Shown: positions 15,901 to 40,784 of the stretch, in pieces
How positions within the stretch are numbered: the first letter of the stretch is position 1
Layout: every line of letters starts with the position of its first letter
Assembly (NCBI GenBank): GCA_050084515.1
Contig: CM114271.1
Location: forward strand, 19,530,001-19,594,000
Reading direction: 5' to 3'
Origin: Blasia pusilla
Lineage: Eukaryota
DNA length: 64,000 nucleotides
The notes under the pieces: generated by a model
The model's database searches: none
What the model was told of the DNA's origin: nothing
What the model saw: only the letters and a program-made list of their open reading frames with translations
Made by a program: the position numbers and the translations under genes

Positions 15901-17794
15901 AAAGTGGTAGTAAAGGGTCAAGGGAAAGATGGAGTGAGAATGAAAGAAATTTTGAGGGATGTGATTCATAAATTGAGAGAGTTGAGAGTTGTATTTGATG
16001 AGAATCAAAATCAAATCTAAGAATTAGCACAAGAAGTTGAGAGAGAGTGAGTGAGAGAGAGAGTTCATTAACCATGTGTGCATTAACTTCTGAGGAGAGT
16101 CAAGAAACCTTCAGGTCACAAGCATTGAAGGCCCATACAACATATAGAGTATTGGAGATGAATACCCAAGCATCATTGATACTCATAATCACAATGGCAT
16201 GTAAGGTAGAATTATATAAAGTAAGTCGAGTTATGAGGATAATAGACGATTGGATCACTTGTATTAAAATCCACTTATCTCTTTTCAACATCGATAATCA
16301 TATTGCAAGGATGTTTGTAAGATCTTGGTTATTAGATCAAGCATGAATATGGTGTCAAGGATCGTGGAGATCCTTGATTGAAATGGGTCAAAAATACACA
16401 TGGAGTAGGATAACGTTGCCAAGCAAGGGATATTGAAAAATTTCCAAGTTATGGACCCCATCCTCACTACGAGAATAAAACTATAATAGAAATTGGAGTA
16501 GATAAATTGAGAAACTTCCTCGAAGTGTAGAGTTGGAGAGACGAAAGCATAATGAAGAGTTGGAGTTGAAAGTCATTCGGTTCGTACGTTATAATGTTAT
16601 CTTGAAGATGTCTTGGATGGAACTATACAATTCATAGGTAGATTAGAGAAAAAAATTGTGAAGACCCGAGAGTGGAAGCGTTACGGAGGCAAAGTTAGAT
16701 CATGTCCTACAACCTTACGCCTAATGTAATAGGAGAAATTCCCATTAAAATCTAGATGCATATTTTCATGGTTTATTATGAGATGTTGGTGAATTAAAAA
16801 AAAAAACTTGGAGGTACTAAACAAGATGAGAGAAATACTGGAAGAGTATAAGGAAGTATTCCCAAAAGAATTACCATCAAGGTTATCCCCAAACAGATGA
16901 TAGACCATAAGATTGATATCCTTCTAGGAAGAGAGTCATCTTGTAAGGCTCTTTACTATCTTGATTCAAGGAAATTTGAATAGCGTAAAATCCAAGCGGG
17001 AAAGTTGTTGGAGAAAGGCTTCATCTAACCAGGTGTCTTGCCATATGGAGCCCCAATTCTTTTCGTTAAGAAGAAAAATGGAAGCATACAACTCAATATT
17101 GACTATCAAGCACTAAATCAACAACGGTGGAAAAGAAATATCCATTTTAAAAAATGGATTACTTATTCGACTAACTACAAGGAGAAAAATACTTCATCAA
17201 GCTCGACTTGAGAAGAGGCTACAACCAAATTCAAATTACGAATGAAGATGTCATAAAGACTACTATTTGCACTACGTATGGACACTTTAAATACTTAGAT
17301 ATGCCATTTGGTCTCACTAATGCACATACAACTTTAATCAATGATATCTTGCATTCATATTTAGATAATTCTATCATTGTATTCTTAGATGATATCTTGT
17401 TCTATAATTAAACCATAAAGAAGTATAGAAATTTTCTTTGAGAAGTCTTTCAAATCCTATGAGATAATAATTTATATGCTAAAGCTTCAAAATATGAGTT
17501 TTGCAGGACATAATTTGATCATCTTGCGCATCAAGTAAGCACAAAAGAAATTTAAGAAAAATTTGAGAAGGTAAAAATAATCCAAAAATGGGTGCATTTG
17601 AGTATCAAAATCAAGTGAAGAGTTTTCTAGGATGAAGAAGATTTTCTCCAAGATTTGTCAAAGGTTTTATTTGAATTGCATAATCCTTGACAACTTTATT
17701 AAGGAAAAAGACAAAAATATAATTAGGTTACATGGCAAGAGATTGATTTCCAATCATTAAAGGATGTCTTTATCAATGCCCTTACTTAATTTTG

Positions 17795-18320
17795 TAGTAG
17801 TATGATCCTCATCGACCTATCAAGTTGGCCACGGATGCATTAGGTACTACCATTGGGGGGAGTATTACAACAAGAATGGGAGAATGGATGGCATCCAATT
17901 GACTTCCTTTCTCGCAAGTTGTTGCCAATAGAGCAAAAATATCACACAATGCAACCGAGATAGAAGAACTTTCTATTGTATTAACAAACAAGCATTAGAA
18001 ATATTATTTGGGCTATAAGTTAGGAGTTTATGGTGGAGATTGATCATAAGCCCTTATAGTAGTGTGATCCTCATCGACCTATCAAGTTGGCCACAGATGC
18101 ACGAGGTACTTCCATTGGGGGCAGTATTACAACAAGAATGGGAGAATGGATGACATCCAGTTGACTTCCTTTCTCGCAAGTTATTTCCAGTAGAACAAAA
18201 ATACCATACAATGCAACCGAGAGAGAAGAATTTTCTATTGTATTAGCAAACAAGCATTGGAAATATTTTTTGGGCTATATGTTAGGAGTTTATGGTGGAG
18301 ATTGATCACACGCCCTTTAT
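17795..18320 (+). repeat. Tandem duplication of about 262 bp in the RNase H region of the chromoviral Gypsy
   Basis: gatcctcatcgacctatcaagttggccac...gtggagattgatca occurs twice. The antisense ORFs 17809-17991 and 18071-18253 are near-identical. Confidence 0.9.
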
Positions 18321-21300
18321 CTACCAACAGTCCCAAAATGAGTTATCCAAATGAAAAAAATCAATGGGCAGAATAGTGACAATAATTCAACATGGAAATT
18401 TTCTATGTCAAAGGAAAGAAGATGTTGATAGGCATCTTGACTCATATGCCATAAATAAATAATATGTTTCAAGTGGAGATTCTTTTGTGCGCATACATAT
18501 CTCTATACAACATATATCATTGGTCATATCCATACCACACAACACCGATCTTCCCCCCACACACGGGTAGATCCACACATGTACAGAAATCAACTCATAT
18601 ATATACATGGAGATCACATAACCACCCCTTAGCTGGCAGTTGGATCCTCCTAATTCCACATAGAAAATATCACATCTCCCTAACATGACCTACTACCCTA
18701 TACACATCTCGGATATATCCATCATCACGTGGGAACTACATCAAGAGGGGAGTGGGAGGGTCAGACATGACATATGTCACCCTCAAGAACAACCATCACA
18801 TACAAACATGGTGGCTACATCCCTCGCAGATCGGCACAACAAATACTTCAAGCCTGTACCACTTCCAAGCTCAGATTCACTGTCCCGTCCACGTTTGGAA
18901 GGTGATATGGCGCACAATTGCGCACATGATCCTTCCAAACCATACCATCCTATCCCTCCAACATGAGGACTCCCATCGATAATACCTTGTGCATACGTAG
19001 GATCGTGGGCCTTATAGTGACATCTAGCGTCGTGGATGCTGCTTGCTATAAATATATGTAATCTCTAGGATGAGACCTCATAATCCCTGGATAATAACCT
19101 CCTCCACGAATGGTCGCGTACCTCAATGTATCCCTATGTTGAGCAATAGCTAAGTTCTCAAAGGCCATGGTCATAAATCTACAAAAAAATAGATGTGTGG
19201 ATACAAGAGAACACGATTGTATCCACATATCTAGATCATCAAGATCTAACACCTTTGCCATGTCACGTCAAATAGCTGCAAGTAAATTTGGCTCTCTCCC
19301 AAAGAGCAAAAAGTATGGTAAAAATGACGCCAAGGATGCCTACGGACTAAGTGATAACCCATAGCCAACCATGGCAACTATAGGTCTGACTCCCTCAATT
19401 GTCCCCGCTGCAAGCCAGACTTGCATAATCCTCTCTTCACCATCTGTACTACTCTCTCCGCCAACCCATCCGCCTAAGGATGATCTCTGGATGTGGTGTG
19501 GTGATCTATCAACGCCTGATCACACAAGGCCTGAAACTCTCCCCTGAACTTGGTACCCTTGTCAGTCAACACCTCCGCTCGTGCACCAAAGTGACTAAGC
19601 ACACGACCTAGAAACACATAAGTTGTTTCCTTGCTCGCCTTTTCCGGTAGTGCCACCAACTCTATCCACTTGGAGAAATGCTCCACCATGACCAACACGT
19701 ACCTATGATGACACCCCGTCAATGGCAAAGGTCCCGCGAAGTCTAAAACCTAAACCCATAATCGGAAAAGGATGTAATTGCAGAATGGGAGCATTAAAGG
19801 ATGCTCGCACTTGGTCACATACCATACATTTGGCTACAAACTACTGTACCCCAGTATGCATGCGGCGTCACCAATACTGAACCTAGGGTAAGTTGTAAGT
19901 ATGCTTTACTCCAAAAGGCCCCAACTCCTCATGGGCATGTCACACTACACGTGCTCGTTGGGAAGGATGAGGTACCACTTGTATCCTACCATCTCCCCAT
20001 ACCCGCAAAATGTGAGTCCCCTCCCACCTGAACCTCCTGGCTCTCTGTAGGATCTGATCACGATCCCTAGCAACTCATTGTGCTCGTTATGACACCATTA
20101 CATAAGAACTCCACAACCTCCATGTCGTCATGGATATCACGACCACGTATCACCTCCACACTGACCTCCGGATCCAAAGACTCATCATCCAACCCCACCA
20201 CTAGAATCACCACCTGCGGCTGACCTTCCATAGTCAACCAACAAAGATAGGTAGATGCATGCCAATCGAGCACCATCTCCTCATCACTATCTCCGTGTCA
20301 TTGAGCTCTTGTGTCGTCTATCTAACTCAGACATAGGTTATGATTCAACCCATCTGCATCTTGGTTCAGCCGACCAGGCGTGTAAACCACCTCAAACTCA
20401 TACTCCTATAGTAGTAGAGCCAACATGGCAAGCTTTTCGGACTTCATCAACCACCTCAATGGGTGATGATCAGTGATAAGTGTGAAAGGGTTTCCAAATA
20501 AATAGCACCTGAAATGTTTCACGGCCCATAGTGCAGCCAAGCAATCTCCCTTGTAGGAGTTGTACTTCGCCTCTGCAAAGTTGTTTGATTGGCTCGCGTA
20601 AGCCACAACAATGGTATATGGTGTGTCCCAAGTACTCAATATGCTCCTGAAAGAATCTGCACTTTCCTAGATGCAACTTCAGTCCATGTAACTGCAATCT
20701 CCGAAACACCTCCACTGGATGTCGCTCATGCTCCTCAACCTTTGAATCGAAGATAAGAATATCATCTATATAACACCGTACAAAATCCAAGCCAGCCAAA
20801 ATCCTATCCATCACTCTCTGAAACTTTGTGGGCGCGTTCTTCAACCCAAATGATAAGAATCACCACTGATACAAGAAATCTCTCCCGAACCGATCTATCC
20901 CCTAGAATGCTCTCTTCTCCCTGTCCTCCAACCTCATAGGAAGATGATGATAGCCACCATCGAGATCTAAAGTACTGAAGATCCTTGCATGCACTACTAC
21001 ATCAAAGATCTCCTCAGGAGTAGACATGGCATATCGATCCGACTTTTTTGGTCGGTTGATAGGTTGGTAATCCCCCCATATCCGCCTATCCCTCCAATTT
21101 CCATACATATCCTTCTTCGCGGGCATGATTGTGGCAGATGCATAGTCCCCATGTGATAACCCCACAAGTCTTGACTCCTACTCTGAATCAAGACTCGCTC
21201 CATATCAGAATACCTGTAGGGTTGACGAAAGATCGTCATATCACTAGCCAACTCAGTCGGTAACCCGGGACCCTTCAGCGTACCCAAGTCTCTCATACTG

Positions 21301-21699
21301 AAGGCAAAACAATTGACATGCCCTCTCAGAAACCTATGAACTTATAGTTGCTATCCTTCTATCAACTTGAGACCTATCATAGGCTCCCAAGTCTACATTG
21401 TGACCTCACTCCGAGAGGATGTAACCTCCGGCTTTGGTTGCTATGTAACAACCCTAGCCACCTCCGCGAAAGCCACTCCACTCTAACCTCCTACACCATG
21501 CTCCACATCCAAAAAATGAACATGTGCTGCTCTGGCCATCTTCGCACTCCCCGCTCCAACGATGTCCTAGGAAGTCTATGGGTGCCTATCTCTCCTCATC
21601 CCGCCCCCAGCCAATGCCTATACAGCCCCTGTAGGAAATGCTCCAACTCGTGGATGTGACGGCATGGATGACACTTGCATCCGTCTCTGCTCACCCATG

Positions 21700-22650
21700 C
21701 ATAGGATGACTATCCATATGAGATACTTGAGGTCCATTGTGTGCCCCAATACCTGTCTCTGTGATGCCTCAATCATACTTGGCACCGCTGTAGTATCCGT
21801 GGCGAATCCCATGGCGCGCTCATGCTCATCTGCCATAGGCCCCTCCAATGCTTAGGTCATCTCATCCCAAATCATGTCTGGCCCTCCCTGAAAAAAGGCA
21901 TGGGATGTTGGGAAGCTCACCAAGGTAGGTAAGGCTGCCCTCAACTCCCCCACCCTATTGGCTATCGCCAACGGTGGTCTATCATCCGGCGTCACCACCT
22001 TAGATCGACGCCCTGAGCCCAAAATAACATCCACCGTGAGATGTGGTGCTCTCTGAACACCATCGTATGCTTGACTCAGTTCCTCTGATGGTATGAGGTT
22101 TGTCCACCATAGCCGTAGACGATGGGCACGTGATCCAACTCTCACTACATCTAACAACACAATAGGTCCTAACCAAGACCTGACATGATGCATACTCGTT
22201 ATCACACGTGCACGAGTGTCTCCCAACAACAACACGTTCTCCAAAATGTACGCTGGAGAACATGTCTGACTCTCTTGCAAGTGTCGCCCTACTCGTAGCA
22301 TCTCCCAAAACATCCTTGACCTCAGATCTTGCAATCCAAACCCTCGGCCAACTGATGAATGACCCTCACATGGCCATCCAACAATCACCAAATGAATGGT
22401 GCCAATTCTATCCAGATCCTACGCCCCTACCAGAGAGATGTCAAGGAGTAGTGTATGCTCATACCCCCATACTGTAGATACCGGGAACAACTCACGATAC
22501 TTCTGGACCAATCTCACCACGTGACGTAACGATACTTGCCGCGCGGTCTCATCTCTCTCCACATAAAGGTACTAATGCACTCGTATGCCCGCCTGCAACA
22601 CCGTAGCTAATTCCATGCTAATCTCTCCGAAGAGATCTAACACCCTAACA
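21700..22650 (-). pseudogene. C5 cytosine DNA methyltransferase domain (DNMT3-like) embedded in the retroelement polyprotein
   Basis: One frame with three premature stops. Motif I VLDLFGEIS, II YVERD, III DISLV, IV LVIVGWPCEGHS, V GLQDLRSRMFWE, VI YILENV, VIII SRAHRLRLWWTNL, IX EHERAMGF, X QRQVLGHTMD, in canonical order. Confidence 0.9.
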
Positions 22651-25600
22651 TCCTCCTCTAGACACGACCATACAACAAGTGTGGTATCAATTGGTGTCAA
22701 TGTCTCCACTCTAGGAGCCCAATTGCCACCTGACACTTGCTGCTCCAAGATAAAGGCATGACTCCACGCCTCTCACGAGGTTTTCGGCACTCTTCTTAAG
22801 CTCTCGAGTCGTACCCCACAATGATGAAGAGGTCTTGCCAACATAGGAAGAGGCACCCGCCATGGCCTGTCTCTCGGTGGGACTATCCGCTATTGGGACA
22901 TCCTCCGCATGGCCGTTCCCCTCCAACAATTCTCCTGGCAAGCTAATACTACTTGTGAAAGCTGCCAATGTGGTCATAGACTCGTCTTGCCATTGACCAC
23001 CTTGTCCCGGAAACTGCATGGGTAACTGACTCATCCGCCCATCATCTGACCGCCACCTTGGTCGATAAGCAACGGTCTCCTCCCAGAAGTCAAGGATGAA
23101 TCCTAGGGGATATAACACTATGCTCCCCACCAACACATCGTACGACTCAGCTGGCGTCATAATCGCACGCGTGCGTACCATAGCAATATCCATCGCATGC
23201 TCTGGCTGGACTATGACAAATTTTCCTGTCAAGTCATATACTGCATGGATTCAGGAGCGCAACCCTTGATGTTAGGCGACCCCAATCGAGGTCTATATCT
23301 GGAAGGGAAAAGGCTCAATGTCGGCCTTCCGTAACCCCAACTCTAAACACGCCACCTTCCCTAACATCAAGGGTTGCGCTCCTGAATCAAGTAGGACGTA
23401 CATTGCCCCTGTCGGACTAACCAAGCGAAATACTCCAGCTCGGTTATCCAATAATACCACGCAAGGTGTCACCATGGCCCGCTCTATGGCCAGTCGAGCT
23501 GGCATATCTACCAACTTTGCCGCCGCCGCATGCCATGACTTAGTGGGGGATGTCCCAAGCACTTGCTCCGAGGGCAAGTCCACCACCTCCTCAACTATCT
23601 ATGAACGAGAGGCAATTACCTCTCCAGGCTCACACAACGTGGCACCCTAGCCAGAACACCTCAGCTGGTCCAACTCCCAACGTTGCCAACTCTATGGCAG
23701 AAAATAACGGAGCATGGCTCACCTTGGTGGCCACCTCCAACCCTATGGTCGATACTCACCCCACTCAAGCCACCATAGGAGCTGCCACTCCAACTCCTCG
23801 TGACGTCGGCGCACCTGCTTGACCTGTAGGCATCATTGGTTGTCGAGGCACCATCGATGGTGTGTGTAGTGCCTTTGACAACGTGAAGGATTGTGGAACT
23901 CTAGCATGCCGCCCATCGGTCTCCTCCGGTGGGTCAATCTTAACTCCACCTATTGATGGCTCAATGCCTCTCGCAGCACCTCGAGTCACCACTGCAGCGC
24001 CTTAACCTGAGCCGCACTACACATAAACCCCATCTTAGCGAGATCCTCACCCGAGTCAGGGTAAGAGGTGGAAGTAGGAGCCACACTAGCTACTCTCGGC
24101 TCCATGCCTTCCTTGAGCTGCATCATCGTCATGGCAGCAATCCTGTACTCCAATTGATTGATGCACGAGAGAAGTGCCATCTCTAATGCTCCCGCTCCAT
24201 CTCCTTTGGCAGGTAGTGGTCCTCTACCACCACGTCTAGCAAAAACTCCTCGACCTCTTCCAGGACGATTGTCCCTAGGCCCTCGGCCTTCCTCTGCACG
24301 TGCCTCTCGGCGAAGGTCAAAACATCTATCCCTAGTGTGACCATATATGTGGCAATAGTCACACTAGTACTATGGTGGGGCCATCTTCTATGGCTCCTGA
24401 GCAATCAGAGGCGCTCGTAGTCCTCTTCCATGATGTGGACAGTCTCTGTGCCTATGGGCCCCTCCACACGTTCAACAAGACACCATCGGTCCTTGGTGGG
24501 AAACATATGTAGGTATGGATTGTTGCCTCATAGGCTCATAGTACCCGCCCTGCTCTCTAGGCACAATGGCCCGCTCCCGTGGTACTGGTGCTCTCTGTGG
24601 CAGTTGTGAGGTCACTCTCGCTTGTGGATCCATCGATTCTCGAGAAAATCCAGCGGTCACTTCCTGCTCCTCACTCATATTGAGCTCAATACGCTTAGAC
24701 AACTCGAAGACTTCCTTCAATGTGGGCTTCGTTGTATGAATCAACACCACATCTCGGACTCTCCTCCATAGTTCTTGGTCCAGAACCTCGTACCAATACT
24801 GGACTCACTACGCCTTAATCACTCCATAAGTAGCAATGATCGGCCTCCTCATGCGCGTAAATGCCTCTCTCAGACTCTCACCCGATCGTCGCTGAAAATC
24901 TTGTAGACTCTTCAGCTTATCGGTGCGTACGCCTTGGTAGCTCTTCCCCAATTGTCAAAAGAACTCCACTGTGGGACTATAGCTGGGTGACCCTATTTCA
25001 CCAGAGGTCTCTGCCATATTTCCTGTCTCACTGCCCTCCTCTCTGTCTAGTCTCCATGCTGATGGTGAGGGTCTATCTCCTCTTACAATCCCATCATATG
25101 CCTCGCGAGCACTAGTGAACACATACCCTGGAGCCCAATACATCCTCTAGGCATCGATCTCTACTGAATATAGTGATCAAAACTCCATGTAATCATCCAT
25201 CAGAGGACCCTCCAAGTGCTAGAACAACCCCTTCCATGCCATGAAAGGGTTGAACGGTGTCGGGGTCCGTATATCCTGGAAATCACACCACGTGTCAAAC
25301 TCTTGGATGAAGTCATCTTAGTCGATGGTGCCCACTGCACCCAAGAAACGACGCATGCTCGGTGGCCCATGTCGTCCATCTCCTGCCAAGTGACATTGTC
25401 TCCATATGCAATCTCGTAACCAGACCCGTTGCCCAATGATGAAGATCCAGCCATGGATGGAAATTGATGTAGCTCCTCACTCGTAACCCCTCGGTATCTC
25501 ACTCCACTCTGTATCACACCATTAGTATTGCTCGCACTACCCCGTTCTTCCGAACCCGAGAAGAACGCCGTGATGACAACCCTATCTCACCCGCTCAAGC

Positions 25601-25845
25601 ACTCAGACTCACCAAGAGTCTCCCACACTCCTCACTAGCTTACCTACGCTAATGGTAATCCCGTGACGGCACACCCGGCCTAAAACTCCACTCCTCAATC
25701 TTCATGGGCATATCAAGCCTCATCCACCCTGTGCTATCAAGGAATCGAGACGCTAGCATTCAATCCTAACTCACACACATGAGCAAGAATGATACTCCAA
25801 CGGCCCAACATGAGAAAGATGGCATGGGAAAGCCATCTTCCTCCC

Positions 25846-25852
25846 TTATATA
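25846..25852 (-). promoter_or_regulatory. Putative TATA box of the DNMT-PHD element (same motif at 39352-39358 in copy 2)
   Basis: Minus-strand CCTATATAAG is conserved in both copies about 275 bp inside the 5' terminus and points toward gag. Confidence 0.6.
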
Positions 25853-27495
25853 GGGTTGGGAAGAGCAAAAAGGCTCTTTCCCTAAAAATAGTTATCCTCT
25901 TGGTAACCTACACGTACAGGTTACCAAGGGGGGATGACCTGCTCAACAAGCCACCTGGCTGTGAAAGACCTCAACAAGAATGTTATAAAAAACAACGTTC
26001 CTCATACAACAGACCTATCGTCAACCTCATCCGACACCTCGGGACAAAGTTACACTCAAGACAGTCCTCTGGCTCCTATGCCCTATCCACGATAGATCTC
26101 AGCCTATCGTCTACTCAAATGTGAAAATTCACTCTAGTTGGTGGAAAATGTTGACCAAAGCAACAAAAGGATGATGAAGAAATTGTTATGGTTGTTTATG
26201 CCAAGAAAGCACAGAAGGCTCAAGGATTGGTTTTCCATAATAGTAAAGTATGGATCCCACAAGATCTAAACTAACAAACTCGAGTATTATATGAGGCTCA
26301 TGATATAAATATTTTGGGTCGTATGGGAGTTGGAAAAACCTTGGAGGAGTTACGACGGATATAGTATTGGCCCAAAAGGAGAGAAGATGTTGATGCATAA
26401 GTAACGAGTTGTATGATTTATCAACAAATCAAGGCTAATAACACAAAGCCAACACGATTATTACAACCCGTTCGAAAAGTTCATAAACATTATGAATAAG
26501 TTAGTATGAAATTTTTTTATTACCATGTAAAATCATGGGATACAAATCTATTTTAGTGTTTATGAATTGACTAAGCAAGATGATACATCTCCGTCCAACC
26601 AAGAAAAAATTTCATCGCCCTAGAGCTAGGTAGGATCTATGTTAAGACCATCTTTGTTCATCATGGTCTTATGGGATCCTAAAGTGTTTATCACTAATAG
26701 ACGAACCCACTTCATATCTCTATTTTGGAAGGCCTTATTTGGATTTCTCCAAACTAAACTAGCAATGTCTATTTCTTATTACCTTAAATCAATGAGTAAC
26801 TTAAAAGAGCCAAGTGTACCATTGAAGATATGTTGTGGACATTAAAATTGGAGGATCAACAAAGATGATACTTATTGTTACCATTGGTAGAGTTCTCGTA
26901 CAATAACTCTACAAACTCTTTCATTAAAGCAACATCCTTCTTTCTAATGTAAAAGAGAGCATTGTTTGATCCCTTCTAGTCTCACTCGAATAGGGAACCT
27001 TCCAATGGAATGTACAAAGATATCAGTCATGAGTTTGTGGATGAAATTCAAAAAAAAGTTCAACTTTCTAAAGAGAAGTTGTCTATTGCCCAAACTCAAG
27101 AAAAAAAAAAGTAGATGATCATCATTGAGGAGTAGAGTTTTCTAAAGGAGAGAAATTTTGGTTAGTAACAACAAATTTATCATTAGTAGGTATGTGTAAC
27201 CTTAATCCTTGCTATATTGGGCCTTTCATCATTCTATAGAAAGTGAGTGTCATGATGAGTAAGCTAGACATACCGATGCATTTGAAAAATCCATCATGCG
27301 TTTCATATTTCTCTTTTTTGATCGTTTATTCCATGTCCTAAAAGATTTGAGGATAATATTTGCCCTCCAAAATTACCTCAAATGGTAAGAGTGTAAGAGA
27401 TCATGAAGAACGCATCTTGAAAAACTGCACTCTAGGAGCTTATCACCAACGAGTCGAATCTTGGTCCTATTGAAAGTATATCCATTATTTGAGGC

Positions 27496-33634: not shown

Positions 33635-35107
33635 ATGTACTTTGTTTAGGCCGCCATCGTCATTGCAGTTTTGTCATCAATTAGTGATGGCAGGTGACCT
33701 CGGGTTATGGTGTTTGAGTTTTCATTTCATGCTACTATGTTGTGATTGGTAGTCGCTCGACGACGATCGAGTACCGGGCCGTAACGCTCGTAGTCGCAAC
33801 GCGCCGTTGATTGCCGTGTCGTGCCGCTCGTGGCCGCACCGCACCGTCTCAATCGCGGAGCCGCTCCTTCACTAAGGAGCAGAGCGTGTGAATTTCTGAT
33901 TGAGGAGGGTATGCCGCCGAGTGCCGCACCCCATTCCCGAGTGCCGCACCGTTTGTAGTTGTTTCGTGCCGCCATTGTTGCACCGGACCGCTAGACCTGC
34001 ATCGCACATCGAGGAGGTTTGAGCAGCGTCAGTACGAGAGAAGTACGACTTGCTCATTGGAGGAGTTGTCTTCACGACTGAGTTGGGGTTGAGATTTGTA
34101 GTTGCCGAGGAGCGACATCGACATTATTTTCAGGTTACCCATTCTGGTCTCTTATCCTACACATGTGAGGGATTTTCGGGTATTGGGAAAGTGCCCAACC
34201 ACCTAGAAATAACATCGACCATCTCTATAGCTCTAGACATTGTAACAAAATAATCGTGACGCCTTCCACCGACACCAGGCCATGGAGTTACAGGAAAAGA
34301 ACGAGTCTCTTCCATTATCTAAAAATTACGGCAATAAATACGCCCAGTCATTTCTTTATTACCATCATACTCTCTCAACATAAGAATAGTTGGTTGAACT
34401 GCAACAAACAACTCCTCACCCTCCATCCAAAAATCGTGATTGGCCACAGTAGTCTCAATCTCTTGTGCCTTCTCCCTTTGTCTCGCATCCCTGCCATTGA
34501 AATACTCCCTAAAAGCATTGGTGGCAACCATGGCATGGAACGCCTCCCTCAATTCTAAGACGCGTCCCAACATGATAAAATTTGTCGTAAAGCGTGTATT
34601 TGCAAGAAGCAACAATCGTCTCTTCATTGGATTGGTTTCCACGAATTTGGCCATCATCCAAGTTCTAGTCTTGACAAATACTACCATCTCACAAGCTTGA
34701 GCAAAAAATCCTGTCCAACCAAGGCCATTTACCCCACTCTTCGCAGACTAGATCAAGAGAATGTGATACACATCCATCCCAAAGAATATGAGGGAACTTT
34801 GTTTCGATAAGTTTTTCCTTCTGCTTGGTCATTGTTAGCATTGTCTGTCACAAGTTGTAACACATTCTCTAGACCAATGCGCATGATAGTCATTGTCGTG
34901 CGCAGACATATCGCTAAACAACATACATCGCTGGTCACATCTACACCACACAACACCGATCTTCCCCACACACAGGTCGATCTACACATGTACAAAAATC
35001 AACTCATACATATACATGGAGATCACACAACCGCCCCCCTAGTTGGCAGTTGGATCCCCCTAACTTTAGATAGAAACCATCATATCTCTCTGACATGACC
35101 TACTACC

Positions 35108-35260
35108 CTATATACATCTCGGACACATCCATCGTCCCGTGGGAACCACATCAAGAGGAGGGGTCAAACATGACATATGCCACCCTCGGGAACAACCATC
35201 ACATACCAACATGGTGGCTGCATCCCTCGCAAATCCGCACAACATACACCTCAAGCCTGC
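35108..35260 (-). CDS. PHD finger at the integrase C-terminus (domain of the decayed element polyprotein)
   Basis: CMLC...MLVCDGCSRGWHMSC...VPTGRWMCPRC matches the C4HC3 pattern with the conserved Trp. Confidence 0.93.
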   Translation of the reverse strand, partial: AGLRCMLCGFARDAATMLVCDGCSRGWHMSCLTPPLDVVPTGRWMCPRCI

Positions 35261-38200
35261 AGGTACCATTGCCAAGCTCGGATCCACCGTCCCATCTATG
35301 TTCGAAAGATGACATGGTGCACAATTGCGCACATGATCCTTCCAAACCATACCATCCCATCCCTCCAACATGAGGGATAGGATGTGTAAGCTCATGTGCG
35401 CGAGGTATTACCGATCGGAGCACACGTAGGATCGTGCGCCCTCCAGTGACAACTAGCGTCGTGGGTGCCGCTTGCTATAAATACACATAATCTCCAGGAT
35501 GAAACCTCCTAATCCCTGGACAATAACCTCCTCCACGAATGGTCGCGTACCTCAATGTATCTCTATCCTGAGCAATAGCTAAGTTCTCAAAGGCCATAGG
35601 CATAACTCTACGAAAAACCTCCGCCCTCCGAGAATATCCTTGTATCCACACATATGGATCATCAAGATCTAACACCTCCGCCATGTCACGTCAAATTGCT
35701 GCAGGTAAATCTTGCTCTCTCCCAAAGAGCAAAAAGTATGGTGAAAATGACGCCAAGGATGCCTACCGACTAAAGCGATAATCCATAGCCAACCATGGCA
35801 ACTGTAGGTCCCACTCCCGCAATTGTCCCCGGTACAAGCCATACTTGCGCAATCCTCTCTTCACCGTCTGTACCACTCTCTCCGCCAACCCATCCGCCTC
35901 AGGATGATCTCTGGACGTGGTGCGGTGATCTATTAGCGCCTGGTCACACAAGGCCTGAAACTCTCCCCTAAACTCGGTACCCTGGTCAGTCAACACCTCC
36001 GCCGGTGTACCAAAGTGACTAAACACACAATCTAGAAATGCATAGGCTGTTCCCTCGCTCGCCTTGTTCGGTAGTGCCACCAACTCCACTTGGAGAAATG
36101 CTCCACCATGACCAACTTGTACCTATGATGACGCCTTGTCAATGGCAAAGGTCCCGCAAAGTCTAAACTCCACCGATAACCTAAACCCATAATAGGCAAC
36201 GGATGTAACTGCATAGTGGGAGCATTGAACGATGCTCGGACTCTGTCACATACCATACATCTGGCCACAAACTGTTGTACCCCAGTATGCATGTCGCGCC
36301 ACCAATATTGAACCTGGAGTAAGCTGTAAGTACGCTTTATTCCAAAATGTCCCAACTCTTCATGGGCATGTCGCACTACACGTGCTCGCTAGGAAGGATG
36401 AGGTACCACTCGTATCCTACCACCTCCCCATACCCGCAAAATATGAGTCCCCTTCCACCTGAACCTCCTGGCTCTCTGTAGGATCTGATCCCGCTCCCTA
36501 GCACTCACTGTGCTCGCTATGACGCCAGTGCACAAGAACTCCCCAACCTCCACGTCGTCATGGATATCACGATCGACCACCTATCGCCTCATCACTAACC
36601 TCCCGATCCAAAGACTCATCATCCAACCCCACCACTGGAGTCACCACCTATGGCTGACCTACCATAGTCAACCAACAAAGATAGGCAGATGCATGCCAAC
36701 CGGGCACCATCTCCTCATCACTCTCACCGTGCCATCGAGCTCCCGTGTCGTCTCTCTGACTCAGACATGGGTTACGACTCAACCCATCCACATCCTAGTT
36801 CAGCCAACCTGGCCTATGAACCACCTCAAACTCATACTCATGTAGTAATAGAGCCCACTTGGCAAGCTTTCTCGTAAGCTTGTCGGACTCCATCAACCAC
36901 CTCAACGGCTGATGATCAGTGATAAGTGTGAAAGGGTTGCCAAATAAATAGCACCTGAAATGTGCCACGGCCCACACTGCAGCCAAGCACTCTCCCTTGT
37001 AGGAGCTGTACTTTGCCTCTGCAATTTTTTTTATCGGCTCGCGTAAGCCACAACGAACTCCCTCTCCTCATCATCCCTCTGAGTAAGCACTGCTCCTAGA
37101 CCCAACATGCTCCAATCCGTATGTAACTGGAATGGGCGACCCCTAACCGATCTCTGTAAAATGGGTGAGAACGTCAACCTGTCCTTGAGCTCCTGATCAT
37201 CTCCCCACAACCAAACCTGATCAAGTCTCCTCAACAAGGTCAAAGACTTTGCGATCGCACTAAAACCCTTGACATACCGTCGATAGAAGTTTGCCAGTCC
37301 AAGAAATGCTCGGACTCGACTCACATCTGTAGGGCGTGGAATCTGCGCAATAGGCTCTACCTTCGTCTGCTAAACGCCTAACCCACTCAGGTATATGGTG
37401 TGTCCCAATTACTCAATAGGCTCCTGAAAGAAATCGCACTTGCCTGGATGTAACTTCAGTCCATGTAACTCCAATCGCCGAAACACCTCCTCCAGGTGTC
37501 CCTCATGCTCCTCAACAGTGGAATTGAAGATAAGAATATTTTCTATGTAACATCGTACAAAATCCAAACCAGCTAGAATCCTATCCATCACTCTCTGAAA
37601 CTTTGCAGGTGCGTTCTTCAACCCAAATGGTAAGAACCGCCACTGATACAAGCAATCTCTCCCGAACCGATCTATCCCCCAGAATGTTTTCTTCTCCCTG
37701 TCCTCCAACCTGATAGGAAGCTGATGATAGCCAACACGGAGATCTAACGTACTGAAGATCTTTGCATGCCCTACCGCATCAAAGATCTCCTCAAGAGTAG
37801 GCATGGTGTACCGATCTGACCTCGTCTATCAGTTGATAGGACGGTAATCTCCACACATCCGCCTATCCGTCCAATTGCCATACATATCCTTCTTTTCCGG
37901 CATGACTGTGGCAGATGCATACTCCCCATGTGATAACTCCACAAGTCCTACCTCCAACAAGTCGTGACTCTTGCTTTGAATCAAGGCTCGCTCCATAGCG
38001 GGATACCTGTAGGATCAACGAAAGATCGGCGTATCAATTCAATATCTCGGGACCCTTCAGCGTACCCAAGTCTCTCATATTGAAGGCAAAACAACTGACA
38101 TGCCCTCTTTGAAACCTAGGAACTCGCCGTCGCTCTCCTCCTATCAACTTGAGACCTATCACAGGCTCCCAAGTCTCCATCGTGACCTCACTCGGAGAGG

Positions 38201-38364
38201 ACGCAACCTCCGGCTTTTATTTCTATGTAGCAACCCTAGCCACCTCCGCAATAGCCACTCCACTCTGACCTCCTACACCATGCTCCACATCCGAAAAATG
38301 AACATGTGCTACTCTAGCCGCCTTCGCACTCTATACTCAAACGACGTCCTAGGAAGTCCATGGT

Positions 38365-38794
38365 TGTTGGATTCTCAACATCCACTTCTCTAAGCACCAT
38401 TAATCTGATCGGCCCCCTTGTATGAGGAGAAGCCTAGATTGATGGTTCCGACTTAGACGTCGAAGGAGTCATAGTAATATGACGTAGGTGGTTTGAGGAG
38501 TAGCGTTACTAGGTTTATCTAACCCTATATTGCATCAGGGTGTGGGGCACCCTGATGCAATATATGCAAAATGTTTCTATTAATAGAAACGAAGAAAAAT
38601 AGGTTAAAATCCTAGTTTTCCCTAGTAGTCAAATAGTCGGGAGCCGCAGCAGTAGCGCATTCTCGTATGTCGAGTTATCTCCTAGTTCAGGTTCCATCGA
38701 AGCTCTTCTGTGAGCGCACGGACAGACTAGGCCACTTTGTATCTCTAAGTTTTGTAAAGATTTCAATGATTTCCTCACTTTCTATTTTCTCACA
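38365..38794. mobile_element. Solo-LTR-like insertion of about 430 bp in copy 2
   Basis: Absent from copy 1 at the homologous site. Ends TGTTGG...CTCACA with near-duplicated flank CATGG. Internal hairpin at about 38526-38564. Confidence 0.7.
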
Positions 38795-40784
38795 CATGGG
38801 TTCCTATCTCTCCTCGTCTCGTCCCCAGCCAATGTCTGTAGAGACCCTGTAGGTAATGGTCCAACTTGTGGACGTGACGGCATGGATGACACCCGCATCG
38901 GTCTCTACTCAGCCATACCTAGGCTGACTATCCATGTGAGACAGTTGAGGTCCACCACCTGCCCCAATACCTATCTCCGGGATGCCTCAGTCATCCTTGG
39001 CATGACCGTAGTACCGGTAGCGAACTCCATGGTACGCTTGCGCTCATCTGCTGTAGGCTCCTATGGACTTCCTGGGACGTCGTTCGAGCAGAGAGTGTGA
39101 AGGCGGCTAGAGTAGCACATGTTCATTTCTCGGATGTGGATATTTCTCATGTAAAAATAAAGAGTAGTAAAAACAACACACCCAGCCTAAAACTCCATTC
39201 CTCAATCTACATCGGCATATCGAGCCTCGTCCACCCTGTGCTATCAAGGAATCCGGACGCTAGCACCCTATTCCTATCTCACACACATACAAGAGAGGTG
39301 CTCCAACAGCCCAACATGAGAAAGATGGCTTAGGAAAGCCACCTTCCTCTCTTATATAGGGTTGAGAAGAGCCAAAAGGCTCTTCTCCTAAAAATAGCCC
39401 TCCCCTTGGTAACCTGCGCGTACAGGTTACCAAGTACGAGTGACCTGGTCAACAAGTCACCCGACTGTGAAAGACCTCGACATGAAAATTGTCAAAAACG
39501 ACGTTCTTGACACGATGGACCTATCCTCAGCCTTATCCGACACAGTGGGACAAAGTTACACTCAAGAAAGTCCGTTGGCTTGTACGCCCTATCCAGGATA
39601 GATCTCGGCCTATCGGCTACCCAGATGTAACATCCTCTATATGTGACATGTCAACCATTCTGCCGTCTAGGATTCCCCTTTGGTGTCTATTGACTCAATC
39701 ATGACCTCACCTTGTGGACATGAGACCATTATGTTCACTAAAGACTCGCTACTCACATTGGTCCAAGAATCCGTTATGATCGTGGCCCCCAAACGCAAAT
39801 TGTCCAATATGCCATCCACCGTTTCCTTCACCTTCCTCATATGTTTCTGAAGTAGGGTGGTGCGCAAGGAATTGTAACTAGGACCTAAGTAACCCTTCAC
39901 CTTTATTGTTGCCAACATTGCTTATTTGAAAGCGTCTTGCCGTACTACGTTGAATGGTATTCCACATTTGTAGAAACACTTGTCATTCGCAACTTCTATT
40001 CCTTTCATGTTGAAAGAATCCCTCAGATCAGCTTGCTTCTTCCCATAACTGCTACTCCCTCGGATGGGCCCACCGAGTGATAGTCTCGAGGAATGCATTC
40101 CTTGAGACTGTCACTCGGTGGCATGTCCGCAATCCCATCAACATTTTGTACAACATTAACATTAATTTCTATTTCTTGCGAACCTATTTGTAATGGAGTC
40201 GTCTCTTCCAATTCACTCGAAGGTCTCGCTTTCCTTCTTTGTCCATTTCCCACTAGTACCTTGTTTCGGAGATCTCGTTGCATGTTGGGAGGGACTTTCA
40301 CACATAATTTGGCATGATGGATATCCTGATTCCCATCCTTTATCTTTCGTCTCTCTTGTGTAAAACGCTCCATCATCTGCGTGCTATGATAGGTTTTCAT
40401 AGAATAGGAACAATACTTGCACTGCCATCTGCTTGATGTTCCACCTTCCATTTGTACTTCTTTCCAATGTTCCTTAACAATCTGTTGGAGTTCTCTGGCT
40501 TTGGTCATGACTACAGGCACTAACTAACCACAGCCAACAATATTTGGAAAATTCGTGATAATTTACAATGTCAATATTAATATACATCGATAAGTAAAAT
40601 GTATGCAATTTACACCAAATATTGTCCATGAATGCTCCAATAATAAAACTTGGAACACTCACTATGAGCAAGAAAGATCAATATGCTAACCGAGATAACC
40701 GAGATACCTTTAGTATCAGGGTTATCTAGTGGCAAAACATATTCTCACTTATCAAGTTCAGCTATTTATGGAGAAAAAAAAAGC

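What the first reader, a model, noticed from the sequence alone, without database searches (positions are those of the whole stretch)
21700..22650. Gypsy retroelement carries its own DNMT3-like cytosine methyltransferase between protease and RT
Seen: all the main C5-MTase motifs in canonical order in one frame (LDLFGEIS, GWPCEGHS, LENV, AHRLRLWWTNL, ERAMGF, RQVLG), between the LLDSGA protease and the RT. Copy 2 keeps motifs IX-X at the same position, so the domain belongs to the family and is not a chance capture. Known: motifs VIII-X resemble DNMT3 (AHRARYFWGNL, ERVFGF, RLLG). Retrotransposon-borne DNMTs were reported in dinoflagellates and a charophyte alga (de Mendoza et al. 2018). Inference: this is a land-plant lineage whose protease-released DNMT may be packaged and methylate its own cDNA or insertion site.
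Basis: partly seen in the sequence, partly recalled or inferred. Interest (0 to 1): 0.9.

Follow-up and report, generated by a model that had tools for sequence, protein, structure and literature searches.

The report
Dead moss-type retrotransposon carrying a DNA methyltransferase
The window holds a broken copy of a jumping gene that encodes its own DNA-methylating enzyme; the type was described in a green alga in 2018 and its relatives here are liverworts, peat mosses and related algae.

Summary
All six motifs lie in one minus-strand frame at 22772-21621, between the protease and the reverse transcriptase (RT) of a Ty3/Gypsy-type element. Pfam PF00145 is reached only just. The nearest solved proteins by sequence, and by fold for an intact relative, are DNMT3A/B/C.

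This copy is dead. It has three in-frame stops, changes in motifs I and IV, a rearranged protease and no detectable LTRs. Copy 2 keeps only the last ~88 residues of the domain.

The domain belongs to the family. The same protease-DNMT-RT order occurs in 13 Marchantia gene models, in Calypogeia, Sphagnum and Closterium, in an intact 2188-aa polyprotein and in 144 metagenome stretches. The catalytic residues are conserved. dN/dS is about 0.15 at depth and 0.5-0.7 among decayed close copies, against 0.35-0.4 for RT.

A sister class in chlorophyte algae has the domain between RNase H and integrase. Both classes end in a PHD finger. Complete relatives have the A-coding-B-A-B repeats reported for Klebsormidium Gypsy-DNMT3, with 4-bp target duplications.

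Verdict: a land-plant member of a known kind. What the enzyme methylates is untested.

The parts
18483..26150 (-). Copy 1 of the element: leader, gag, protease, DNMT, RT, RNase H, integrase, PHD remnant, polypurine tract and a B-like 3' segment. No LTR or A repeat was found.
   Evidence: Homology to copy 2 runs 18487-26122. tblastn of Marchantia, Sphagnum and metagenome polyproteins maps the domains. No terminal repeat was found.
23998..25353 (-). gag, with a CCHC zinc knuckle at 24363-24322.
   Evidence: 47% identity to residues 12-439 of Marchantia P0061. The CDYCHIYGHTRDRC motif was located.
23062..23598 (-). Aspartic protease (LLDSGA at 23394-23377). It is broken by stops and by a 29-nt perfect inverted duplication at 23248-23276 / 23360-23388.
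21621..22772 (-). DNMT3-like C5 cytosine methyltransferase domain: motifs I-X in one frame, with three in-frame stops.
   Evidence: 59% identity to the intact relative P0002 over 365 residues.
20614..21389 (-). Reverse transcriptase.
   Evidence: Pfam RVT_1 at 67 bits on ORF 20470-20859. tblastn.
20076..20663 (-). RNase H.
   Evidence: tblastn of P0069, P0075 and P0106.
19348..20062 (-). Integrase (zinc-binding part and DDE core).
   Evidence: Pfam rve at 43.7 bits on 19474-19749. tblastn.
18744..18842 (-). Remnant of the PHD finger of copy 1, broken by stops.
   Evidence: by comparison with the copy 2 PHD finger.
18483..18560 (-). Purine tract (GTGGGGGGAAG) and a B-like terminal segment. Copy 1 ends here.
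34894..39628 (-). Copy 2, about 85% identical to copy 1. It lacks gag, protease and most of the DNMT. RT is at 38035-37034, RNase H at 37022-36711 and integrase at 36571-35415.
38797..39060 (-). Copy 2 remnant of the DNMT C-terminus (motifs IX-X), with stops.
35111..35284 (-). PHD finger after the integrase of copy 2, in an open frame.
   Evidence: Pfam PF00628 at 47 bits, E 2.6e-12.
34894..35042 (-). Polypurine tract CTAGGGGGG (35042-35034) and the B-like segment that ends copy 2.

Best explanation
The window holds two decayed, non-autonomous remnants of one Ty3/Gypsy-type retrotransposon family. The polyprotein of the family reads gag(CCHC)-protease-DNMT-RT-RNase H-integrase-PHD. The DNMT module is a non-rearranged, DNMT3-type C5 cytosine methyltransferase and is an old, selected part of the family. 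The family belongs to the streptophyte Gypsy-DNMT3 kind first described in Klebsormidium nitens. Here it is traced to land plants (liverworts, Sphagnum) and to the alga Closterium.

Shown: the anatomy, the homology, the DNMT3-like fold of an intact relative, the conserved catalytic residues, purifying selection, the shared domain order and the terminal repeat layout in relatives.

Inferred (about 0.35 for this particular mechanism): in live copies the enzyme is translated within Gag-Pol. It stays with the RT/RNase H module, which it flanks in both architecture classes. It uses S-adenosylmethionine to methylate the element's own newly made DNA, or the copy just integrated. The PHD finger on the integrase chooses the chromatin for insertion. 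The copy in this window does none of this, because it is dead.
For: - Motifs and frame.
- PF00145: 22.3 bits for the window and 29-46 bits for relatives.
- Sequence and fold: the 29 best of 31 PDB hits for the window domain are DNMT3A/B/C. The family profile ranks DNMT3A (2.6e-11) above 3B, 3C and DRM (1e-5 to 3e-3), then bacterial enzymes and DNMT2; no DNMT1 or CMT appears at E up to 10. An AlphaFold model of the intact relative P0002 reaches pLDDT 92 and pTM 0.90. All 35 Foldseek rows shown (ranks 1-49; further chains of listed entries left out) are DNMT3A/B/C, with E 5.5e-19 and a target TM-score of 0.79-0.85 against catalytic-domain chains, lower (0.41-0.56) against longer chains.
- Conserved residues: in 48 diverse relatives the catalytic Cys of PCQ and the Glu of ENV are invariant. 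Q141, R223, R225, N230 and E321-R322-E323 are at least 90% conserved.
- Same order in single ORFs: Marchantia P0069 and P0075 read DNMT-RT-RNase H. The intact 2188-aa P0106 reads CCHC-protease-DNMT-RT-RNase H-integrase. Sphagnum, Calypogeia and Marchantia models carry the protease upstream of the DNMT.
- Selection: deep pairs give dN 0.32, dS about 2, omega 0.15-0.18. The window against the loci gives dN 0.36 and dS 2.6. 19 independent close pairs give pN/pS 0.68, binomial P 1e-12.
- Trees: in both the DNMT tree and the RT/RNase H tree the two architecture classes are split by one supported branch. The window falls in a 16-row clade (support 99) with Marchantia and Calypogeia.
- Ends: A-coding-B-A-B repeats with 4-bp target duplications in 3 of 3 loci with both ends. 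This is the layout the 2018 paper describes for the K. nitens element (figure legend).
Against: - The window domain only just reaches the Pfam cut-off. It is broken, with changes in motif I (GG to GE) and motif IV (PCQ to PCE).
- Neither window copy has LTRs or the A repeat, so the family layout is inferred from relatives that are only 65-70% identical in DNA.
- Among close copies the DNMT is less constrained than RT/RNase H: omega 0.53 against 0.40 in the same 10 loci.
- Only 2 of 44 loci with a near-complete domain are free of stops, so most known copies are dead.
- dS in the deep pairs is saturated; 15 of 44 window pairs gave no estimate.
- No K. nitens sequence was retrieved, so kinship to the published element rests on the described features and not on an alignment.
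- My trees have no true outgroup, because P0089 fell inside the algal class.
- No activity, substrate, protease cleavage site or RNA evidence was obtained.
- One algal-class protein carries a bacterial MAG label (P0286). I read that as mis-binning.
Confidence: 0.85

Rival explanations
1. The enzyme acts on the host chromosome and not on the cDNA. After integration guided by the PHD finger, it methylates the insertion site and its neighbourhood. This places the new copy in heterochromatin at once and limits harm to the host, or it methylates other loci in trans.
For: A PHD finger follows the integrase in the window and in the algal class. A PHD-type reader together with a DNMT3 catalytic domain is the logic of cellular DNMT3 (recalled). 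The 2018 Discussion lists an effect on chromatin at the insertion site and self-limitation as possibilities.
Against: The PHD finger and the DNMT are far apart in the polyprotein and would probably be cut apart. In both classes the DNMT flanks RT/RNase H and not the integrase C-terminus. No methylome data were examined.
Confidence: 0.3
2. The domain no longer methylates DNA. It is either an RNA methyltransferase acting on the element's RNA or a structural pseudo-enzyme kept for folding or packaging of Pol.
For: The 2018 paper found one LINE-borne DNMT inactive on DNA in yeast and raised RNA methylation as an explanation. The Pfam scores are modest.
Against: The catalytic Cys, ENV, the motif VIII arginines, the motif I glycines and motif IX are conserved across 48 diverse members. 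The nearest folds are the DNA enzymes DNMT3A/B/C, while DNMT2 ranks far lower.
Confidence: 0.1
3. The DNMT-like stretch is a fragment of a host DNMT3 gene, or an assembly chimera, that lies inside this element by accident. It would not be part of a transposon family.
For: Copy 2 lacks most of the domain, and both window copies are rearranged.
Against: The same order occurs in single ORFs in four named genera and in many unnamed contigs. 144 of 255 candidate metagenome stretches were confirmed as relatives; 80 were kept as loci, and the 11 long loci mapped domain by domain all have the DNMT between gag/protease and RT. The DNMT and RT trees agree.
Confidence: 0.02

Closest known systems
KnitGypsy-Dnmt3 of Klebsormidium nitens (de Mendoza et al. 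2018, PMC5890265; passages and Discussion read)
   Same: A non-rearranged DNMT3-like domain inside the Pol ORF of a Gypsy-type element. Key residues are conserved. Ka/Ks is below 0.2; here 0.15-0.18 at depth. The repeats are laid out A-coding-B-A-B, seen here in 3 of 3 complete relatives. The host is a streptophyte.
   Different: The hosts here are land plants (liverworts, Sphagnum) and Closterium. The position of the domain in the K. nitens Pol is shown only in a figure that I could not see, so the same position is not confirmed. No K. nitens sequence was compared. The window copy is dead.
Chlorophyte Gypsy elements with RT-RNase H-DNMT-integrase-PHD (unnamed class found here; Monoraphidium, Scenedesmus, Cymbomonas)
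   Same: The DNMT domains are homologous (34-41% identity, E 1e-38 to 1e-65). The RT, RNase H and integrase backbone is homologous. A PHD finger follows the integrase.
   Different: The DNMT sits between RNase H and integrase instead of between protease and RT. The two classes are separated by one supported branch in both the DNMT and the RT trees. The named hosts are chlorophytes and not streptophytes.
Cellular DNMT3A/3B/3C (solved structures)
   Same: Same motif order and best match by both sequence and fold. The catalytic PC, ENV and the motif VIII arginines are conserved.
   Different: Only 20-24% identity. No PWWP or ADD domain adjoins the catalytic domain. It is encoded inside a transposon polyprotein and has no introns. 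Motif IV reads PCQGHT.
SymbioDIRS-Dnmt3 of Symbiodinium (same 2018 paper)
   Same: A retrotransposon-borne DNMT3-like domain within Pol and an A-coding-B-A-B repeat layout.
   Different: It is a DIRS element with a tyrosine recombinase. The family here has a DDE integrase and makes 4-bp target duplications. The paper treats the two as independent acquisitions.
Chromoviruses (Gypsy elements with a chromodomain on the integrase; recalled, and mentioned in bioRxiv 10.64898/2026.05.21.726589)
   Same: A chromatin-reader domain at the C-terminus of the integrase.

Membership tests
C5 cytosine DNA methyltransferase, DNMT3 type | Motifs I, IV, VI, VIII, IX, X in canonical (not DRM-rearranged) order | tested here: met
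   One frame, 22772-21621. Aligned to DNMT3A over motifs IV-VIII and IX-X.
C5 cytosine DNA methyltransferase, DNMT3 type | Pfam PF00145 at or above the gathering score | tested here: met
   Window read-through scores 22.3 bits against a cut-off of 22, which is marginal. Relatives score 29-46 bits.
C5 cytosine DNA methyltransferase, DNMT3 type | Catalytic Pro-Cys (motif IV), Glu-Asn-Val (motif VI) and the SAM-binding glycines (motif I) | tested here: inconclusive
   In the window PC and ENV are present, but motif I reads FGEIS where relatives have FGGIS, and motif IV reads PCE where they have PCQ. In 48 relatives the Cys and Glu are invariant.
C5 cytosine DNA methyltransferase, DNMT3 type | Open reading frame able to give a protein | tested here: not met
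   Three in-frame stops in the window copy. Met in relatives: L004, L006, P0002, P0106.
C5 cytosine DNA methyltransferase, DNMT3 type | Closest to DNMT3, not to DNMT1, CMT, DRM, DNMT2 or bacterial enzymes | tested here: met
   Sequence ranking against PDB. Fold ranking of an intact relative. Plant DNMT3 was not available for comparison.
C5 cytosine DNA methyltransferase, DNMT3 type | Methylates cytosine in DNA | not testable with these tools
Ty3/Gypsy LTR retrotransposon | Pol order protease-RT-RNase H-integrase (DDE), with a gag CCHC knuckle | tested here: met
Ty3/Gypsy LTR retrotransposon | Two long terminal direct repeats flanked by a target-site duplication | tested here: not met
   No repeat pair in either window copy. 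Relatives have split repeats A-internal-B-A-B with 4-bp duplications and TG..CA ends, not plain LTRs.
Streptophyte Gypsy-DNMT3 (KnitGypsy-Dnmt3 kind) | DNMT3-like domain within the Pol ORF of a Gypsy-type element | tested here: met
Streptophyte Gypsy-DNMT3 (KnitGypsy-Dnmt3 kind) | A-coding-B-A-B repeat layout | tested here: inconclusive
   Met in relatives L067, L047 and L071. The window copies have only a B-like 3' end.
Streptophyte Gypsy-DNMT3 (KnitGypsy-Dnmt3 kind) | [quoted passage not shown] | tested here: inconclusive
   0.15-0.18 in deep pairs with saturated dS. 0.4-1.0 in close pairs of decayed copies. Pooled close pairs give 0.68, P 1e-12.
Streptophyte Gypsy-DNMT3 (KnitGypsy-Dnmt3 kind) | Sequence kinship with the K. 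nitens elements | not testable with these tools
   No K. nitens protein came back, and the paper's supplements are closed.

The most novel reading that the evidence does not exclude
One lineage of Gypsy elements with a PHD finger on the integrase may have carried a DNMT3-type enzyme since before green algae and land plants parted. The module would have moved once, between the RNase H/integrase junction (chlorophytes) and the protease/RT junction (streptophytes). The lineage would then have entered land plants by descent and survive in bryophytes, including the transformable model Marchantia. Its genomic copies are circular permutations of the LTR predicted from the primer sites, yet they carry 4-bp target duplications. 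That would mean a DDE integrase inserts DNA opened at a site inside the LTR, perhaps from a two-LTR circle or a concatemer.
Probability: 0.3. Interest if true: 0.7.

Novelty: new member of a known kind. Interest (0 to 1): 0.5.

Why it matters
Cytosine methylation is the main weapon of plants against transposons, so a transposon that brings its own de novo methyltransferase is a paradox. Its purpose is still unknown eight years after it was first described.

If the family really extends to liverworts and mosses, the question can be moved into Marchantia polymorpha. I count 13 annotated gene models there, and transformation, methylomes and knock-outs are routine. Until now the known hosts were dinoflagellates and one alga.

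The two architecture classes and the permuted terminal repeats with integrase-type target duplications give concrete material for studying how such elements replicate.

The copy in this window adds nothing functional, because it is a fossil.

Tried and rejected
- Whole-genome search: no genome is held for this window, so stop-free copies in the same genome could not be sought.
- LTR search in the window: self-BLAST, end-against-end BLAST and local alignment against shuffles all found nothing. A 24-nt match scored 38 against a shuffle mean of 38.75.
- tRNA scan for a primer source: 0 genes.
- First structure prediction, with 12 close relatives: poor (pLDDT 43.5). It was replaced by a 48-sequence alignment.
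- Homodimer prediction of the intact relative's domain: no support, score 0.00. This is no evidence either way.
- Sequencing runs: no RNA holder is listed, and the DNA holders have small shares only (0.06-0.11).
- ESM Atlas: it only confirmed a C5-methylase cluster that is mostly Streptophyta.
- CpG depletion: 0.61-0.71 in the copies against 0.47-0.54 in the flanks, so nothing distinctive.
- Earlier notes of this scan: none for this genome or this sequence.
- P0089 (Cymbomonas) was used as an outgroup but fell inside the algal class, so the trees are effectively unrooted.
- Target duplications for the two window copies: no consistent offset was found by eye, and I dropped the attempt as unsafe.
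- Literature: nine searches, with passages read in eight papers. I found no text naming a bryophyte or Closterium Gypsy-DNMT3. Two later papers speak only of 'streptophytes' (PMC12344493; bioRxiv 10.64898/2026.05.21.726589). Their supplements, and those of the 2018 paper, are closed and may list such members.
Full report
**Observation.** The element lies on the minus strand. Translating 22772-21618 in one frame gives LDLFGEIS, GWPCEGHS, LENV, AHRLRLWWTNL, ERAMGF and RQVLG in the canonical order of C5 methyltransferase motifs I, IV, VI, VIII, IX and X, at the coordinates listed (sequence). In-frame stops at 22574-22572, 22421-22419 and 21854-21852 interrupt the frame. Read through with X at the stops (P0001), the domain scores 22.3 bits on Pfam PF00145, whose cut-off is 22. 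In phmmer against PDB chains, the 29 best of 31 hits are DNMT3A, 3B or 3C, with a best E of 1.9e-5. The domain is about 200 bases wider than the stated span.

**Anatomy in the window.** I mapped polyproteins of relatives onto the window with tblastn. With Pfam this gives, for copy 1:
- gag at 25353-23998, with a CCHC knuckle at 24363-24322;
- protease at about 23598-23062 (LLDSGA at 23394-23377);
- DNMT at 22772-21621;
- RT at 21389-20614;
- RNase H at about 20663-20076;
- integrase at 20062-19348;
- a broken PHD finger at 18842-18744;
- a purine tract and a short terminal segment that ends at 18483.

The parts lie in different frames and hold many stops. A 29-nt perfect inverted duplication sits in the protease region.

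Copy 2 (34894-39628) is about 85% identical to copy 1. It lacks about 3.7 kb holding gag, protease and all but the last ~88 residues of the DNMT. An inverted segment lies at the break. Its PHD finger is still open (35111-35284; PF00628, 47 bits). Neither copy has a detectable LTR pair. Both are fossils.

**Relatives.** A search of 5.8 billion proteins found 59 relatives of similar length (best E 2e-127, 55-61% identity). Seven carry organism names, all bryophytes: Calypogeia fissa, Sphagnum troendelagicum, Sphagnum tenellum and Marchantia polymorpha. Among longer proteins there were 29 hits: 13 Marchantia gene models, one from Calypogeia, one from Sphagnum fallax and one from Cymbomonas.
- Pfam on Marchantia P0069 and P0075 gives DNMT, then RT, then RNase H.
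- Sphagnum, Calypogeia and Marchantia models carry the protease directly upstream of the DNMT.
- An exhaustive profile search of 1.84 billion cluster representatives found 3417 proteins at E up to 1e-3, 889 at up to 1e-10 and 265 at up to 1e-30.
- One of these, P0106, is an uninterrupted 2188-aa polyprotein with CCHC, protease, DNMT, RT, RNase H and integrase in the order seen in the window.
- A scan of metagenome contigs gave 255 candidate stretches. Of these, 144 were confirmed and 80 kept as loci. They are 65-70% identical to the window element in DNA, so they come from other host species.

**Is it a DNMT3-type enzyme?**
- A profile of 12 relatives ranks PDB chains as DNMT3A (2.6e-11), DNMT3B (1e-8), DNMT3C, then DRM (1e-5 to 3e-3), then M.HaeIII, DNMT2 and M.HhaI. 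DNMT1 and CMT do not appear at E up to 10.
- With a 48-sequence alignment, AlphaFold models the intact relative P0002 at pLDDT 92 and pTM 0.90. A first attempt with 12 sequences failed.
- All 35 Foldseek rows shown (ranks 1-49; further chains of listed entries are left out) are DNMT3A/B/C. The best E is 5.5e-19. The target TM-score is 0.79-0.85 against catalytic-domain chains and 0.41-0.56 against longer chains. Identity is 20-24%.
- Across the 48 sequences the catalytic Cys, the Glu of ENV, G151 and D213 are invariant. Q141, R223, R225, N230 and E321-R322-E323 are at least 90% conserved.
- The window copy departs from the family at motif I (FGEIS where relatives have FGGIS), motif IV (PCE where they have PCQ) and motif VIII.

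**Selection.** I made codon alignments of the loci that hold at least 90% of the domain in one tblastn segment: 44 loci and the window for the DNMT, and 17 loci for RT/RNase H. I computed Nei-Gojobori dN and dS with stops masked.
- Only 2 of the 44 loci are free of stops. Eight have one stop and the rest have 2-10.
- In the 10 loci that have both regions, median omega is 0.53 for the DNMT and 0.40 for RT/RNase H.
- Pooled independent nearest-neighbour pairs give pN/pS 0.68 for the DNMT (19 pairs, binomial P 1e-12) and 0.37 for RT/RNase H (7 pairs).
- Close pairs range from 0.4 to 1.0, as expected if much of their divergence is decay after insertion.
- Deep pairs (L037 against eight others) give dN 0.32, dS about 2 and omega 0.15-0.18.
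- The window against the loci gives dN 0.36 and dS 2.6, with 15 of 44 pairs too saturated to estimate.
- Amino-acid identity between the window and distant P0106 is 26% for protease, 37% for DNMT, 43% for RT, 47-59% for RNase H and 33-53% for the integrase zinc-binding and core segments (31% in the stretch after the core).

The domain is under constraint: less than RT, more than protease.

**Two architecture classes.** I placed RT, RNase H, integrase, PHD and protease relative to the DNMT in 320 collected proteins. The result was 14 with DNMT before RT, 43 with protease before DNMT and no other clue, 132 with RT or RNase H before DNMT, 27 with DNMT before integrase or PHD only, and 104 uninformative. 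The common full form of the second class is RT-RNase H-DNMT-integrase-PHD (33 of 235 proteins; P0084 and Monoraphidium P0266 by Pfam).
- In a FastTree of 188 DNMT domains the architecture label changes once, across a branch with support 95.
- In a tree of 110 RT/RNase H regions the second class again sits on one side of a branch, with support 97.
- The window falls in a 16-row clade (support 99) with Marchantia and Calypogeia. Its copy 2 RT is 73% identical to Marchantia P0075.
- Named members of the window's class are Marchantia, Calypogeia, Sphagnum and Closterium species. Five of the 19 looked-up proteins of this class (the twentieth protein looked up there, P0129, is of the algal class) carried an organism name, all Closterium.
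- Named members of the other class are Monoraphidium, Cymbomonas and Scenedesmus. One is labelled a bacterial MAG, which I take to be mis-binned.
- So the named hosts split as streptophytes against chlorophytes.
- The trees lack a true outgroup, because the intended one fell inside the algal class. The direction of the relocation is therefore open.

**Ends of the element.** Three loci hold both ends: L067, L047 and L071. They show a 5' repeat A1, the coding region, a purine tract (ctagggggg), then B1, two bases, A2 and B2.
- The elements are 9127-9206 bp long. They start TG or TA and end ACA. They are flanked by 4-bp duplications: CATA, TCTC and AAGG.
- B begins right after the purine tract and A ends where a primer site is expected. 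The LTR predicted by ordinary reverse transcription would therefore be B+A, and the genomic copies are circular permutations of it.
- The 2018 paper describes A-coding-B-A-B for its DIRS elements. In the legend of its figure 4c it says that the K. nitens Gypsy-DNMT3 has 'the same' repeat structure.
- The two window copies both stop exactly at the end of a B-like segment (18483 and 34894) and have no A. I cannot explain this.

**Known or new.** De Mendoza et al. 2018 (PMC5890265; passages and Discussion read) reported Gypsy-DNMT3 in K. nitens, with conserved residues and Ka/Ks below 0.2. Two later papers refer to retrotransposon DNMT3 in 'streptophytes' without naming land plants in the passages I read. 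Nine full-text searches found no text on bryophyte or Closterium members, nor on the four Marchantia gene identifiers. Supplements are closed and may list them. I file the finding as a new, land-plant member of a known kind. The second architecture class, the PHD finger and the target duplications are additions.

**How it most likely works.** What is shown is structural and evolutionary. The function is inferred. In both classes the DNMT flanks the RT/RNase H module, on one side or the other. It keeps a full catalytic set and is translated within Pol. The most economical reading is that it travels with RT and methylates the new DNA copy, before or just after insertion, while the PHD finger guides the integrase. 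This is the hypothesis printed in 2018 for the DIRS elements. I give it about one chance in three. Methylation of the insertion site or of the host genome is about as likely. An RNA-directed or non-catalytic role is less likely, given the conserved residues. The benefit to the element is unknown.

**Limits.** There is no genome for this window, no K. nitens or plant DNMT3 sequences and no RNA evidence. dS is saturated at depth. The large trees are FastTree or quick searches. Few proteins carry organism names. A homodimer prediction gave no answer.

Noticed in passing
window 35111-35284 (-); remnant at 18744-18842 (-): A PHD finger (PF00628, 47 bits) follows the integrase of the element. The same domain ends the chlorophyte class, and Monoraphidium P0266 adds a Tudor domain after it.
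   Followed up: partly
L067 6000-15203; L047 1766-10971; L071 1679-10805: Complete relatives have split direct repeats A1-internal-B1-A2-B2, with 4-bp target duplications and TG..ACA ends. Relative to the purine tract and the expected primer site, the copies are circular permutations of a B+A LTR. This is odd for an element with a DDE integrase.
   Followed up: partly
window 18483 and 34894: Both window copies end exactly at the end of a B-like segment, and their shared 5' limit (26122 / 39628) lies near an A-end-like motif. No A repeat is present. It is unexplained why two separate remnants share both limits.
   Followed up: partly
window 23248-23276 and 23360-23388: A 29-nt perfect inverted duplication encodes the protease active-site peptide on both strands. 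It marks a small rearrangement inside copy 1.
   Followed up: no
window 17792-18317: Two tandem copies of a 262-bp unit (91% identical) lie directly downstream of the 3' end of copy 1. They are not shared with copy 2.
   Followed up: no
window 29626-32146 (-): A second, unrelated Gypsy-type element (RVT_1, Integrase_H2C2, rve; about 25% identity to the DNMT family). It gave no tblastn match to the DNMT part of any of the six query polyproteins.
   Followed up: partly
window 17124-17954 (+): A weak RT-like tblastn match (24-28% identity) on the plus strand, just beyond copy 1. It is probably another retroelement fragment.
   Followed up: no
window 39054-39140 vs 21502-21588: At its deletion breakpoint, copy 2 holds an inverted copy (83% identical) of the stretch that follows the DNMT in copy 1.
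   Followed up: no
window 18000-42000: GC skew is strongly negative (-0.15 to -0.27) over the retroelement-rich stretches: 18-26 kb, 28-32 kb and 34-42 kb. The coding strands of these elements are G-rich.
   Followed up: no
L037 321-6800: A divergent subfamily copy with a 957-aa open gag-protease frame, a stop-free RT/RNase H, one stop in the DNMT and very low CpG (observed/expected 0.28).
   Followed up: no
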